From assembly GCA_038154245.1 (NCBI GenBank), contig JAYOZP010000003.1, positions 1-64,000 on the forward strand: a DNA stretch of 64,000 nt, read 5' to 3'. The position numbers were made by a program. The number at the start of each line of letters is the position of its first letter. The first letter of the stretch is position 1. This stretch comes from Nitrospinales bacterium (GTDB lineage: Bacteria; Nitrospinota; Nitrospinia; Nitrospinales; JAJDAT01). Positions 39,001 to 54,000 of this stretch are shown piece by piece.

Positions 39001-42000
39001 AGGCATTAAACATTTTTGTCATATTTTAAAACGCAAATAATAGATAGATACGTTAATAGTTTTTTATTTTATTTAATGTAATTTGATACAACCTCTGAGC
39101 CTCGCTATTATGAATATTTAACAACATTATTTTTTGAAAGGTATCCTTACTTTCTTTCCATTTGTTTTGTTTAAATAAAACGATACCAAGATTCATAAGA
39201 ACTCCCTCATGATTTGGATTAATTGTAAGCGCCTCCCTTAAGGCCTCTTCGGCTTTTTCAAATTGGTTGTTTTCAAAATAAGCGCCTCCAAGTTTGCTAA
39301 GTCCATCAAAATCATCAGGTTTTAATTGTAAAAAATTAGTTAATGATAAAATGGCTTTGTTATATCTTTTTGCCTGCAAATAAGCTGAAATTAAATTGCG
39401 ATATGAATTTAAGGAATTGGAGTTTAATTTGACGGAAATTTGAAATTGCTTTATAGCGTTTTCCAAATCTCCTAACTTAAGGTACGTAAACCCTAGATTG
39501 TTTCGTACTACAAAAGATTGTGGCTTTTTCTCTGCTTCATTCAAATAAGTTGATAAAGCCAAGTCGGTTTGCCCAACTTTCATATAAGCGAAAGCAAGGT
39601 TACTATATCCTTCAGGATAGTTAGGGTATATTTTTAAGGCTCTTTCGTAAAATCGTATAGCATCCTCATAATACTCCAGGTCCATTAAAGCAAATCCCAA
39701 ATTTGTCCTATAAACCGAGGCGGTATTAGAATCTATTTGAGGTTTGTCTGCACAAGAAAAAACAAAAATTAAAATCCAAATTGGAGTTTTGAAAAAACAC
39801 CGCATAAAGAATTAGCGTTAAGAAGCGATATATAATCCAAGAATTTTTTAATAAAGTTCACCTGTACCAGGCAAAGCCAAGTTTTTCCAATCCCAAATAT
39901 TCTGCCAAATACAGAAACAAAACTCTTACATTTTTTTTACTTATTGAGCAGTAAACCTATGTTAGGAAGTTATATGAGAATGTTTTACTTCAGCCTTAAA
40001 CAAAAAAACTAGGAAAAATATAAAATAAAATGGTGCGAAGGGCGGGAATCGAACCCGCACGATGTTTCCATCGCAGGATTTTAAGTCTTTTTAATAATAT
40101 TATAACTTATTGATTTAAATGAATTTATATAATTATTTAAGTGTGTATGTGTAAGAATCTGTGTAAGTTTTGACCGGTTTTCGGTCCTCTATGAGCCCCT
40201 AAAACCCTTTCCGGGCACTTTAACTCTTTCTCTTGCCCAACCCTTTCTTTTCTTCTTTTAGCTTGCTTTGCTCTGAATCAATGGGCTATTCAAATACAGA
40301 GACAACAGGATCCAAAAAATCTGGCATGGGCCTTAATTAGCGTGTTAAGCCAGAGATCTTTAAACAAAAGCCAGAAATACTACTTTGAATATTGGTTGGA
40401 ATAATTTGATAGCCATTTAAACGGCTCTTAATGAGCGTTTGAAGTTTGAATCCAATTTGAGAGGCTCCAATTGCTAAATTTTAGAGTGGTTTTAAATAAA
40501 ATCCTCATGGGTTTATTTATATTAGTTTTGGGTTTAAGTGGAACGTCTTTGTCTGCCTTGGCCCATCAACCTAGAGAAGTCACCTCAGAAAATATTGTTG
40601 TCTTTAAACCAGAAATTTCTAAAGCGTATTATGGGACTTTATCAGGGCAATCACATTTTTACACGATCAATAAAATTTCTTCCTTTGATTTATATGTAAA
40701 TATTTTGGTTCCTTTTATAGAAGGGGCCGGAAAGAATATTGTGGTCGAAATTTTTAGGGATAATCGGTCTCTAGGTATTCTTAGGCCGGGCGAAAAGGAT
40801 TGGAAGGAGTTTTTTGAGCCATTCGGCCACAGCACTTATTGGCAAGGTCCGGAATTCAAAATACGTGCTGAAGCTGGGAGATACAAAATTCTTGTGCAAA
40901 GTAAAGAAGCAAATACAAGATATGTTTTGGCCATTGGTGAAATTGAGTCGTTTGATTGGAAGGAAGGATTAAATGCAATATTACTCATTCCTGAATTGAA
41001 GCGGAACTTTTTTGAAGAGCCCCCAATAAGTTTCATATGGTCTCCTCTTGGATGGGGGTATGTTTTATTCCTACAACTTTTGGCGCTTCTGGCAGGGTGG
41101 GTTGTATCCAGAGTATTAAAAACGGGTGGAATAAAGTTTCACAGTAAGTCTTTCCAGAAAGATACTAGAACCACCATGGTTTGGAGCGCAGTTCTATGGA
41201 TAGGAATGCTTTCATGGGCTGTTGGAACCTCCTGGCACCCTGTATTAATCCTTATATCTGGTTTTGCTCTTTTTGTAGCAATAATTAGCTGGCGTAAACT
41301 TAGGTATGTAAACAGAATAGAGCATAATTAATTGCTTTACTTATCCCGAGATTAGATGGATTTATAAATTATTATTTCAAAGCATTTTTGAAAACCTTTA
41401 AAACTAGGGTGCGTTGGGTGGCGTGTTCGACGATTGGTTTAGGGTAATCCTTACCTATGATGCATGAGGCTCTTTCCTGAGTTTTCAGGTTTGTGGTTGA
41501 GGGGAAATGGATGTCTTTGTTTGAAAAACCTGCCAGTTCGGGAAGAACTTTGCGTATAAACTTGCCCTCAGGGTCAAAGCGCTTTGACTGAGTCACCGGA
41601 TTGAATATTCGGAACCACGGTTGGGCATCGCAACCAGTTGATGCACACCACTGCCAACCTCCATTATTTGCCGCCAGGTCAAAGTCGAGCAGGAATCGGG
41701 CAAAATAAGCCTCTCCTTTACGCCAATCCACCAGTAAATCCTTAACCAAAAATGAGGAGACAATCATTCGTAGGCGGTTATGCATCCAACCAGTTTGATT
41801 GAAGTGTCGCATAGCTGCATCAACCAAAGGGTATCCTGTTTTTCCATGACACCAGGCAATAAACATTTCATGGCTTCCTGGCCATTTGATTGAATTGAAT
41901 TCAGGTTTGAATGTTGAAGTGATCACTCGGGGAAATCGATCCAATATCATTTGATAAAAATCTCGCCAAATTAACTCGGAAAGCCAAATTTCCGCCCCTG

Positions 42001-51000: not shown

Positions 51001-54000
51001 CGCGTGGCAATGTTATACAATCAAGCTAATACTGTTCCTTCCAGGGTGGAGACGGAAATTGGTATGTCACAAGCGGTTTTTGCCATCTAGAAAATCCATG
51101 TTTCATACTGGATTCCTAAGGGACTTTTAAGTCCTGTGCGTCTACCAGTTCCGCCACCCTCGCACAAAATTAGGGTAGGAATAATTAAACATCAAGAAGA
51201 TTGCCTTAACGACAACTTTGGTTTATTTTGAGGGGAATGTTATCAAGTTTTTCATAAAAATCAACCTTGTTTAACTAATAAACTAAATCTTTCAAAAATA
51301 AAATCGTTTTTCCAATATAAAATAAAAAAAACTACCAAATGAAGTTTCCCTTACGACACTTAGAACGATTAGTAGACACCAATATTAATTTAAATGATTT
51401 CGAAACCGCTGGCGAAGATCTTGAAGTCCTTATAGAAACTCTGAGAGAATTAGAAAAATGCAGAAAATGTAGAACTTATTTGAAAAATAAATTTGAAATC
51501 GAATTATTTCTATCTTCAAATACATTTAACGATCTTTTACAAATTCGAGAGATTGATACGGTAGAAACTCCTACCAAATCAGGGGATGTTGAGTGCGTTT
51601 CTCTCAAAAACTCACGCCCAAACAACGCTCCAGTTTCAGTTTCAGATTTAAACGCCACTTTAAGGGAATTAAATAGAGATCTGATTAGAATTAAAGAAAT
51701 CGCTCAAAAGGAATTCCAAAAATTTAATTTAGCGCAAGACTTATCCGAAAATTCCCTTGAAAAATCTTGGGAAATCGTAGTTTCCTTGAGGAATATGAAA
51801 GGTAACTGGCTTGAAAATATTCTAAATATCCAAAAAACAAAAAGAGCTAAACAAAAACTGAAGGAAATATTTCCTAGCTCAAAAATCACTTTTGAAGGTA
51901 ATCAATTAGACCAGATTCAAAAGGAACTAGCTTTCTTCCGTCAATGCTCGGATTTAAATCAAAAATGGGATCCAATAGGATTAAATCTGATTCCCTGCTT
52001 TAAAAAAGGAATATTAGACATGCTTATTGAAAATGTTCAAGAAATGGGAAGCACGGTGTGGACATCGGTCTACAATGGCCAAAGATTACCAAAATCCCTA
52101 GAAATTGCAGGAATACACTTCGGAGACATCAGGACGATCTTCGAAAACTCTAATCTCGCTCCTTTAAAAGAAAAACCTAACTAATAACCGCCACGTGTAC
52201 GGCTTCCTTTTTCTTCAATACCATACCCTTCGTCTTTATCTAATAAAAGATGCTTCAAATTCATTACTTTTTGGGCTTCTTTCATAGCCGCTTTACCATC
52301 TTCTCTAAGGCGGTTATATCGCAGATCCAACCTAACTAAGTTGGTAAACAAAGGTAAAAACTTCGCTAACATAAAAGCGCCTTCATCTCCAATCTCATTG
52401 TCCGACAAGTTCAAATTTTTTACGGAAATAAGATTATCCGAAACTGCAATATGTTTGCAGCCCTCATCCAAAATTCGATTATAAAAAAGATTTAGGGATG
52501 TCAGATTCGTAAGGTATTTGGATTTCGCGATATGCCGAGCGCCTTTAGGACCGCACAAATTGTTTCCGAATTCGAGACTATTTATTTCAGCAAGAAATTC
52601 ACAATTAGATACATCTTTTGCCCCAATTTCCTCTAAATGCATTGCTGTTAAATCTAAGGTTTTACCGTCTTTGCTAAGTTGAGCCTGAAACAGCTTGTCT
52701 GATTCGGACTTTGACATGAACCGCGGTTGTTCGGCGGAAAAATATGTCATAAATTAAACTCTCCTAAAAATTCAAAACTAAAAGGCAATATAAAACTTCC
52801 AATTAAAGCTAGCGCTTTTAAAACGAAGATAATTATTAATATCGATTTAAAGTTATTGTTTGATTTTTTTTTGAAATCTTTTATGATGATATACTAAAAT
52901 CGTTATAGAGTCACCATTTATAATAAAAAGGAGTTTGTGCATGGCTGGCGCTCGATCCGACCTAGAAATGAGCCTGGGAAATAATGTCATTGTTACACAA
53001 ATGACCCAAGCTATTAACTGGGCAAGAAAATATTCTTTCTTTATTTATCCTTTTATTACCGCTTGTTGCGGTATGGAGTTTATGTCTGTTGCTGGGCCTA
53101 GATACGATCTGGATCGTTTTGGAGCCGCTTTCCCGCGTTTTTCTCCTAGACAAGCAGATTTGCTAATGGTGGTTGGGACTATTAGCCATAAACAAGCGCC
53201 AATTTTGACCAAAGTTTACAACCAAATGGCCGAACCTAAATGGGTCGTTGCCTATGGAGTCTGCACCGTTTCAGGCGGTTTTTATGATAACTACTCCACT
53301 GTTATGGGAATTGACACCCTGATCCCTGTAGACGTTTATATTCCTGGCTGCCCACCGCGACCAGAAATGGTAATTGACGCGCTCATTAAGTTACAAGATA
53401 AAGTACAAAATGAAACTTTAGCGGACCATGTTAAAGGTCCTGCGATGATTACGCCTGCCGCAAATATTTAAAGGCGCTTCAAAAAAAGCTTTTTGAACCT
53501 TATTGAACTCCAAACGATTCCATTTTCGTTTGGAGTTCTTTTTTTATTGAAGCAATCATTCTCTTTCCTGCAGCCACTTCAATTTCAGTTATTTCATCCA
53601 ATCTCAACATTTTTTCAATATTTTCTATTTTTCTACCCACATAATTTTTGAAATCTTCCATATTTGTTGGAGTTAAATCAAGCGTTCCATTTACTAAAAA
53701 AAACCGGTTCTTCAAAAATTGAAAATATAAAGACAAACGCTCAATATTATCGGCGACTCGTTTTTCATATTTTAAAATTGTTAAAGCCTCGTTTTTTCGG
53801 TCAATGACATATCCTAAACTCGTATTATCAATTTTATCAAATTGTTGGTTTAGTAAATCAAAAGCTCTTCTTGTGATTTCTTCGGACGATTTTATCGTCG
53901 GCAAATTTAAAGTTTGAACAGTAGCTAAATCCAGTATTAAAGATCTCACTCCAGTTTGTTCGCTAAGATAGGCAGATTCTAAAGGATATCTACGAAAAAT

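What a model noticed while it worked through the whole genome (the two positions that open the first line are those of the whole stretch)
40030..51164. Integrative element family that splits host tRNA-Leu(UAA) and supplies its own group I intron-bearing tRNA-Leu(UAA)
An 11-kb island is inserted in the anticodon loop of the only native chromosomal tRNA-Leu(UAA), leaving a 5' half (51164-51125) and a 3' half (40087-40030) with a duplicated GACTTAAAA core. Instead of restoring the target with a half-gene, it carries a complete, different tRNA-Leu(UAA) with a cyanobacterial-type group I intron after U34 (51003-50690). Sister copies lie at secondary core-like sites (C107:12214-15428; C142:8007-9745 with tyrosine integrase g04457 just upstream of the tRNA; right end C68:5053). 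The integrase + whole tRNA-Leu(+intron) module is a cross-phylum mobile family that likely explains sporadic tRNA-Leu(UAA) introns outside cyanobacteria.
Evidence so far: Calls 17,24,25: three intron tRNAs, spliced exons fold as tRNA-Leu(taa); call 27: rejoined halves match the intact intron-less tRNA of 4 of 4 congeners at the same locus; call 19: gpI intron in 5 of 120 class genomes, G043 holds host 5' half + integrase + intron tRNA (89% to C142); calls 122/124: of the 80 closest integrase homologues (Alpha/Gammaproteobacteria, Acidobacteria, Planctomycetota) 35 have the intron just downstream, 22 more an intron-less whole tRNA-Leu, many with a host 5' half upstream; call 151 island present in a second sample; paper searches 28,121 found no such element.
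(Added by a program. Inside this text positions count along the whole contig: contig position 1 is position 1 of the stretch shown here. "Call 12" and the like, gene names such as g00115 and contig names such as C1 are that model's own, and its searches are not shown. The text may have been shortened before it was handed on; [...] marks where a part breaks off. The agent that wrote the report below was given it as the finding of a first reader that could run no searches.)

Follow-up and report, generated by a model that had tools for sequence, protein, structure and literature searches.

The report
Integrase-less island replaces split leucine tRNA
An 11-kb piece of foreign DNA has cut this bacterium's leucine tRNA(UAA) gene in two and carries a different whole copy interrupted by a group I (predicted self-splicing) intron; it has no integrase of its own, is likely moved by a related element elsewhere in the genome, and belongs to a widespread family that likely carries such introns between distant bacteria.

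Summary
Observation confirmed. An 11-kb island splits the host tRNA-Leu(UAA) at a 9-bp anticodon-loop core (intact in 4 of 4 congeners) and carries its own tRNA-Leu(UAA) with a 230-nt group I intron. The principle (short core, no restoration, own same-anticodon tRNA) is published as tRNA-dependent lysogeny (PMC10865867), and the intron class is known (Leu.3Ug). This scan has noted the same design before on other DNA (8 notes). Added here: (1) the island has no integrase and belongs to a distinct class with a palindromic left end: 101 of 120 metagenome loci with that end have the intron tRNA 30-220 bp inside, and 8 complete ones lack an integrase; (2) the only cognate integrase in this genome sits on an element splitting a diguanylate-cyclase gene (C142 + C68); (3) replacement and broken tRNA share the anticodon in 41 of 43 loci. 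Corrections: the genome holds two more intact tRNA-Leu(UAA) genes, and only 12 of 37 randomly drawn non-cyanobacterial introns are visibly island-borne, so 'explains the sporadic introns' is only partly supported. Splicing, excision and intron shielding are untested. New variant of a known kind; interest 0.6.

The parts
51125..51163 (-). 5' half of the host tRNA-Leu(UAA), ending in the core (attL)
   Evidence: identical to the 5' part of the intact gene in G001-G004
51121..51134 (-). left junction: core followed by GTCC, making a perfect 14-bp palindrome; marks the integrase-less class
   Evidence: GTCC also follows the junction at C107; 120 metagenome loci; 0 of 60 integrase-bearing left ends
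51004..51124 (-). 121-bp left end, no arm-type repeats, no integrase
   Evidence: in a 445-bp block 83% identical to C107, aligned; no promoter-like site on the tRNA strand
50690..51003 (-). whole island-borne tRNA-Leu(UAA): exon 1 51003-50969, exon 2 50738-50690; CCA not encoded
   Evidence: ARAGORN with introns; spliced exons fold as Leu(taa)
50739..50968 (-). 230-nt group I intron after U34 (class Leu.3Ug), no ORF; interrupts the 7-nt anticodon loop that is the shared core
   Evidence: Rfam RF00028 70.3 bits; terminal G in 78 of 78 related introns, 35 of 51 consensus pairs with changes on both sides
40471..50590 (.). cargo: YbgA/DUF1722, MerR-B12 regulator, FGE-sulfatase-domain genes (one with an in-frame stop at 45639-45641), two c-type cytochromes, CbiX, TPR, DoxX, photolyase, two unknown ORFs; no integrase or relaxase
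   Evidence: 13 of 14 ORFs have a paralogue elsewhere in the genome (46-76% aa best hits)
40141..40168 (-). three direct TTACACA-type repeats about 55 bp inside the right end; predicted arm-type integrase binding sites
   Evidence: a profile from 8 unrelated metagenome right ends ranks C68, C107 and this site as its only three hits in 4.77 Mb (E 0.008, 0.17, 0.46)
40031..40087 (-). core and 3' half of the host tRNA-Leu(UAA) (attR)

Best explanation
The island is an integrase-less member of a family of integrative elements that split the host tRNA-Leu gene at a short anticodon-loop core and carry a whole tRNA of the same anticodon, which likely takes over decoding after predicted self-splicing of its intron; the island was likely inserted by the related tyrosine integrase of an autonomous sister element. 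Shown: the split, the replacement gene, the intron at U34, the shared right end, one cognate integrase gene on C142, three occupied sites that all contain CTTAAAA, and the anticodon match across loci. Inferred: recombination within the 7-nt loop; supply of integrase in trans or by tandem accretion (CIME-like); conjugative transfer (relaxases on autonomous members); expression and splicing; and that the intron, by breaking the core in the replacement gene, keeps the integrase from cutting it (about 50%). In this genome the replacement is not the only source of tRNA-Leu(UAA).
For: Empty site in 4 of 4 congeners. Empty secondary sites: the C107 site is uninterrupted in the 3 congeners inspected; the REC-PAS-GGDEF gene is whole (470-477 aa) in 3 congeners and split between C142 (residues 1-99) and C68 (95-475) here. 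80 closest integrases: 60 have a bare tRNA-Leu 5' half upstream; of 43 with both anticodons readable 41 match (31 UAA, 10 CAA). Left-end search: 101 of 120 loci have the intron tRNA 30-220 bp on, although the pattern did not ask for it; 8 complete islets of 1.6-5.9 kb have the same right-end repeats, different cargo and no integrase or relaxase in 22 ORFs. Integrase 95% identical in another family of the order, 87-89% in an alphaproteobacterial genome with a similar left end. In run X1 the integrase region has a second flank and a second downstream sequence, both absent from this assembly. Relaxase in 3 of 6 autonomous elements scanned. Two islets whose element-type tRNA reads as intron-less at the junction are themselves split by an autonomous element (L080, L401). 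Experimental precedent: PMC10865867.
Against: No arm-type repeats in 0 of 105 left ends of this class against 40 of 60 autonomous ones, so how the integrase would act on it is unclear. No empty site or circle of the window island in runs X1, X2, X4 (contigs drop rare forms). Four other tRNA-Leu(UAA) genes in the genome weaken the need for this copy. 3 intron-less replacements keep the target core unchanged (L083, L086, L113), so a shield is not required; the three introns here leave 6 of 7 core bases intact at the 5' junction. Two drawn loci (L176, L195) appear to have a restored short-arm tRNA upstream as well as the intron tRNA. 68 of 105 left ends are one 42-nt type, so the loci are not independent.
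Confidence: 0.72

Rival explanations
1. The island is an immobile remnant: a full element lost its integrase and left arm by deletion, and the C107 copy arose by the same kind of decay or by recombination between copies.
For: Left arm repeats absent; a pseudogene in the cargo; decay stages seen elsewhere: 1.5-kb islet in G188, host half 6 nt before the tRNA in G017; no excision product.
Against: The same short left end sits at two different sites with different cargo in this genome; the GTCC palindrome recurs in 14 spacer types and 72 distinct flanks and in none of 60 autonomous left ends, which deletion from them would not create.
Confidence: 0.17
2. The class uses a different recombinase (another integrase family or a host enzyme) that prefers the symmetric core, and shares only the right end and tRNA with the C142 family.
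For: Distinct palindromic core with 6-bp symmetry; one viral contig has the same junction beside what reads as a different, oppositely oriented integrase; G017 has a split gene but no C142-type integrase (82; 71% complete).
Against: The right-end repeats match those of autonomous elements (75-90% identity); both nested cases pair the islet with the C142 family (71, 95).
Confidence: 0.08
3. On the intron only: it is a neutral passenger picked up with an alphaproteobacterial tRNA gene and gives no protection.
For: Resident intron-bearing genes with the same exon type are common in Alphaproteobacteria (17 of 26 drawn loci; 49-52); intron-less replacements exist (12 of 80); integrase and intron distances correlate weakly (Mantel r 0.21, p 0.017, n 37).
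Against: 42 of 43 UAA replacements beside the integrase and 101 of 103 whole tRNAs in the integrase-less class keep the intron; several intron-less ones have a changed core-flank base (L069 clade, L105, L352/L398); nested splitting in L080 and L401.
Confidence: 0.45
4. Assembly chimera joining two organisms at the tRNA repeat.
For: The tRNA is a repeat where contigs break.
Against: Single contigs cross each junction without differences in X1, and also in X2 and X4; flanks are syntenic with congeners on both sides.
Confidence: 0.02

Closest known systems
tRNA-dependent lysogeny of actinobacteriophages (Guerrero-Bustamante and Hatfull 2024, PMC10865867; abstract, introduction, three results sections in whole or part and discussion read); also Sinorhizobium prophages at tRNA-Leu(UAG) (PMC11476347, passages)
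   Same: [quoted passage not shown]
   Different: Not a phage: autonomous members look like IMEs and this one has no integrase; target Leu(UAA), not in the paper's Table 2; replacement carries a group I intron in the core; spread over several phyla; host here has spare genes, so dependence is not shown.
[quoted passage not shown]
   Same: Position after U34, U(-1) and terminal G, size about 200-270 nt, no ORF.
   Different: Sits in an element-borne gene; that survey does not link the introns to islands. The review PMC3984707 (passages) says there is little evidence of horizontal movement of bacterial introns between species.
CIMEs and IMEs (definitions in ICEberg 2.0, PMC6323972, passages)
   Same: CIME: attL and attR kept, integration and transfer genes absent; IME: integrase plus relaxase, as in 3 of 6 autonomous members scanned.
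   Different: A recurring left end of its own rather than a decayed ICE end; carries the tRNA that makes the insertion viable; mobilisation not tested.
Intron gain as protection of tRNA genes from integration in archaea (discussed in PMC3293823, passages)
   Same: Intron lies in the attachment site.
   Different: Bacterial self-splicing intron, and it would protect the element's own gene rather than the host's.
Elements that restore the target with a promoter and 5' end (Zhao and Williams 2002; title seen in a reference list, content recalled)
   Same: Some members of this integrase family at tRNA-Leu(CAA) appear to do this.
   Different: The window island supplies a whole gene, not a 5' fragment.

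Membership tests
tRNA-dependent lysogeny | short (~10 bp) common core in a tRNA gene; no functional tRNA rebuilt | tested here: met
   9-bp core, two bare halves
tRNA-dependent lysogeny | [quoted passage not shown] | tested here: met
   41 of 43 family loci match
tRNA-dependent lysogeny | element-encoded tyrosine integrase | tested here: not met
   none in the island; one cognate gene on C142
tRNA-dependent lysogeny | temperate phage | tested here: not met
   no phage genes in cargo; one close integrase hit in viral contigs, without a downstream Leu tRNA in the DNA held; no full match among 50,697 phage records
tRNA-dependent lysogeny | replacement tRNA needed for host survival | not testable with these tools
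   TTA is 37% of host Leu codons, but four other Leu(UAA) genes exist
Group I intron Leu.3Ug | catalytic core, U(-1) at position 34, terminal G | tested here: met
Group I intron Leu.3Ug | self-splicing | not testable with these tools
   no RNA holder listed
CIME | attL and attR kept, no integration or transfer genes | tested here: met
   left arm repeats absent
CIME | mobilised in cis after tandem accretion | tested here: inconclusive
   nested arrangement in L080, L401; none at this locus
IME (autonomous sisters) | integrase plus relaxase, no full T4SS | tested here: met
   L073, G235, G041; for G000 a relaxase on C124 is not linked to the element

The most novel reading that the evidence does not exclude
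A cross-phylum system of autonomous IMEs and integrase-less satellite cassettes overwrites the host's tRNA-Leu(UAA) with an intron-armoured copy: the intron makes the new gene immune to the integrase, the cassette cannot be lost piecemeal, and after decay of the flanks the copy becomes the resident gene. This would be a homing-endonuclease-free route by which group I introns spread and become fixed across bacteria.
Probability: 0.35. Interest if true: 0.82.

Novelty: new variant of a known kind. Interest (0 to 1): 0.6.

Why it matters
It gives a concrete vehicle for horizontal spread of ORF-less group I introns, for which a review finds little evidence (PMC3984707), and it makes two old ideas testable with a plasmid assay: that introns protect tRNA genes from integration, and that patchy tRNA-Leu(UAA) introns come from transfer. 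It extends tRNA-dependent integration from phages to mobilisable islands and to integrase-less cassettes carrying varied metabolic cargo. Island finders that look for a tRNA 3'-end repeat plus an integrase would likely miss these, and default ARAGORN finds no tRNA in this window.

Tried and rejected
Idea that elements at the wobble-redundant CAA gene drop the replacement while those at UAA keep it (10 of 21 vs 2 of 38 without one nearby): rejected; of 8 such CAA genomes checked, 4 have a whole CAA gene 13-35 kb downstream with a shared upstream sequence (5'-end restoring type), 1 a partial one, 1 an element-type gene on another contig, 2 none (56-58). Test of shielding by whether any island intron keeps the full core at its 5' junction (0 of 53 and 0 of 101, vs 2 of 25 resident): not discriminating, expected counts are low and rows are related. 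All right ends seen continue into plain 3' exons, but intron-bearing hosts are too rare for this to count. Exact left-end motif of this genome: 0 metagenome hits. Left-end pattern in 231 Acidobacteriota genomes: not found in those searched. 3'-half pattern found 1 of 30 genomes and missed a known case (G188), so it is too strict to use. No RNA holder listed. Promoter scan uninformative. The careful integrase tree did not finish; the quick tree was used. Paper searches found no description of islands with an intron-bearing replacement tRNA; Rudi 2002 and Zhao and Williams 2002 are not held, the Pseudomonas intron report of Vepritskiy 2002 is recalled only, and supplements and table images of Williams 2020 were not seen and may bear on distribution.
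Full report
Observation. On the minus strand the host tRNA-Leu(UAA) 5' half (51163-51125) and 3' half (40087-40031) each carry the 9-bp core and are 11 kb apart. 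A different whole tRNA-Leu gene begins 121 bp inside the left end (51003-50690) with a 230-nt intron after U34 (Rfam Intron_gpI 70.3 bits). Rejoined halves and spliced exons both fold as tRNA-Leu(taa). All four congeners have the intact intron-less gene, and in the three tested the alignment to the window jumps exactly between the two cores. The island differs in GC (43.8% vs 35-37.5%) and TTA use (17% vs 37% of Leu codons). Contigs of three runs of one study cross both junctions; one may be the source sample. An earlier scan note calls the host Nitrospinota; I did not test the label.

The island encodes no integrase or relaxase; its 14 ORFs are light, redox and cofactor genes, 13 with paralogues elsewhere in the genome. 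Two more intact intron-less tRNA-Leu(taa) genes lie in tRNA arrays on C18 and C78; they were not found in the four congeners or in G005. With the intron copies on C107 and C142 the cell has four other candidates, so this copy is not shown to be essential. The C107 island (3.2 kb, Na+/H+ antiporter cargo) has the same left and right ends and an empty site in congeners. C142 (left end, integrase, tRNA) and C68 (right end) interrupt one REC-PAS-GGDEF gene that is whole in three congeners, so they are most likely one autonomous element. All three sites contain CTTAAAA, the anticodon loop. The C142 gene is the only integrase of its family in the assembly; Pfam gives SAM-like domains above cut-off and a weak Phage_integrase match.

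The autonomous family. About 990 stretches of the genome collection match the integrase patterns; the best 80 were examined. Sixty have a bare tRNA-Leu 5' half upstream of the integrase, 9 a whole restored tRNA (Leu, Arg, Phe), the rest were short or unclear. Downstream lie 43 intron-bearing tRNAs (37 complete UAA, 5 cut by gaps or ends, 1 CAA) and 12 intron-less ones. Where both anticodons can be read, 41 of 43 match. Record titles span Pseudomonadota, Acidobacteriota, Planctomycetota, Gemmatimonadota, Binatota and others (MAG labels may be misbinned), and the strategies alternate on the quick tree. Some members at the CAA gene restore it at the far end with a 5' part instead, which removed my idea of an essentiality asymmetry. 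The integrase is 95% identical in another family of the host's order and 87-89% in an alphaproteobacterial genome with a similar left end. Three of six autonomous elements scanned carry a relaxase, with anti-restriction and defence cargo: they look like IMEs, not phages. In run X1 the integrase region has depth 54 against 21 for the host flank, with a second flank and a second downstream sequence that are absent from this assembly: a circle or another insertion, not distinguished.

The integrase-less class. The window's left junction is followed by GTCC, which makes the core palindromic. A pattern asking only for a tRNA 5' half, the core and GTCC returned 120 metagenome loci. In 101 an intron-bearing tRNA-Leu starts 30-220 bp further on, 2 have an intron-less one with a changed core-flank base, 1 is cut inside the gene, 1 is nested, and 15 show none (14 with 304 bases or fewer held). 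Eight reach the host 3' half within 1.6-5.9 kb; all have the triple right-end repeat and different cargo, with no integrase or relaxase in 22 ORFs. A profile of those 8 right ends finds only C68, C107 and the window site in this genome, at modest E-values. None of 105 left ends has arm repeats, against 40 of 60 autonomous ones, and none of the 60 has GTCC. The loci are not independent: 68 share one 42-nt spacer type, among 14 types and 72 distinct flanks of 94. The class is rare per genome (0 of 231 Acidobacteriota sampled). Earlier scan notes on this design, in the few lines shown, mention small islands but not this end.

Does the family explain the sporadic introns? Drawing genomes at random and searching with the intron alone gave matches in 40 of 401 Alphaproteobacteria (best 30 loci fetched), 7 of 301 Acidobacteriota and 10 of 400 Gammaproteobacteria (classes inferred from the record titles of the centre genomes). 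Leaving out the two centre genomes and 10 loci in other tRNAs (among them one Leu-CAA intron beside the integrase), 37 Leu(UAA) loci remain: 11 beside this integrase, 1 in a split islet, 25 with neither within about 1.5 kb (alpha 8+1 of 26, acido 3 of 5, gamma 0 of 6). In those 25 genomes no second intron-less UAA 5' half was found with one pattern. On a tree of 78 tRNA-plus-intron sequences island and resident copies interleave (9 changes, at least 4 forced by starred branches, 21 in shuffles), which shows traffic but no direction. Decay stages exist: a 1.5-kb islet (G188), a host half 6 nt before the gene (G017), and a possible 11-nt remnant after tRNA-Cys (G1134). In the host's phylum all 3 of 120 genomes with the intron tRNA have a split host gene. 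So the islands account directly for about a third of drawn cases and possibly more by domestication.

Mechanism. Shown: anatomy, cognate replacement, shared right ends, secondary sites. Inferred: a tyrosine integrase recombines within the anticodon loop; the core is too short to rebuild the gene; the element's tRNA covers UUA codons after splicing (terminal G in 78 of 78 introns, 35 of 51 pairs with two-sided changes); the integrase-less island borrows the enzyme. The shielding role of the intron is about even odds: for it, near-universal retention in UAA replacements, changed cores in several intron-less ones and two nested splits; against it, three unchanged intron-less replacements and only one core mismatch at the 5' junction here.

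Comparison and verdict. It works like tRNA-dependent lysogeny (PMC10865867; Sinorhizobium case) but is not a member: no phage, no own integrase. The intron is Leu.3Ug. The island meets the structural definition of a CIME. Ten paper searches found no report of an intron-bearing replacement tRNA on islands; subscription papers are largely outside the library. This scan has recorded the main design in other genomes. Novelty: new variant of a known kind; interest 0.6.

Noticed in passing
L286:~4001-4300 (plasmid CP042640.1); A whole, unannotated intron-bearing tRNA-Leu(UAA) lies between an IS6-family transposase and aac(3)-IId; 1269 of 72,556 plasmid records, mostly Enterobacterales, match the query at 60-80%, of which only this one was read. 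Likely a passenger from the gene's source genome.
   Followed up: partly
L287:5001-5276: Intron-bearing tRNA-Leu-like match (78%, 96% cover) beside trb genes on a conjugative Bradyrhizobium plasmid.
   Followed up: no
window 37735-40003: GDSL and TPR genes just beyond the tRNA 3' half are missing in three congeners: a second small insertion or loss.
   Followed up: no
G001:C36:36492-37497: A congener has the intact tRNA followed by a ~950-bp islet ending in a duplicate 3' half: the same gene is also a target for the classical restoring type.
   Followed up: partly
G000 C18:253-6345, C92:16972-18909, C78:3766-5073: tRNA arrays (24, 9 and 2 genes called), including short-arm tRNA-Leu genes.
   Followed up: partly
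G017:C185:731-901 (L149): Partial intron followed by a 3' exon whose acceptor end pairs with the host 5' half and whose anticodon stem pairs with the element's: a chimeric exon, suggesting exchange between element and host genes.
   Followed up: no
L134 and L205: Same integrase family with an intron-bearing tRNA-Leu(CAA) downstream.
   Followed up: partly
L376:4081-10006: An integrase-less-type left end is followed by an rtcA-rtcB-Ro60-rtcR RNA repair cluster (right end not reached).
   Followed up: no
window 45153-46232 and G000 C19:181-4465: FGE-sulfatase-domain gene with an in-frame stop; the ybgA-merR-FGE block has a paralogous block on C19 (46-76% aa).
   Followed up: partly
G000 C124:6578-7795: Relaxase 50% identical to the one near the right end of the G041 element; may be the unassembled middle of the C142-C68 element.
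   Followed up: no
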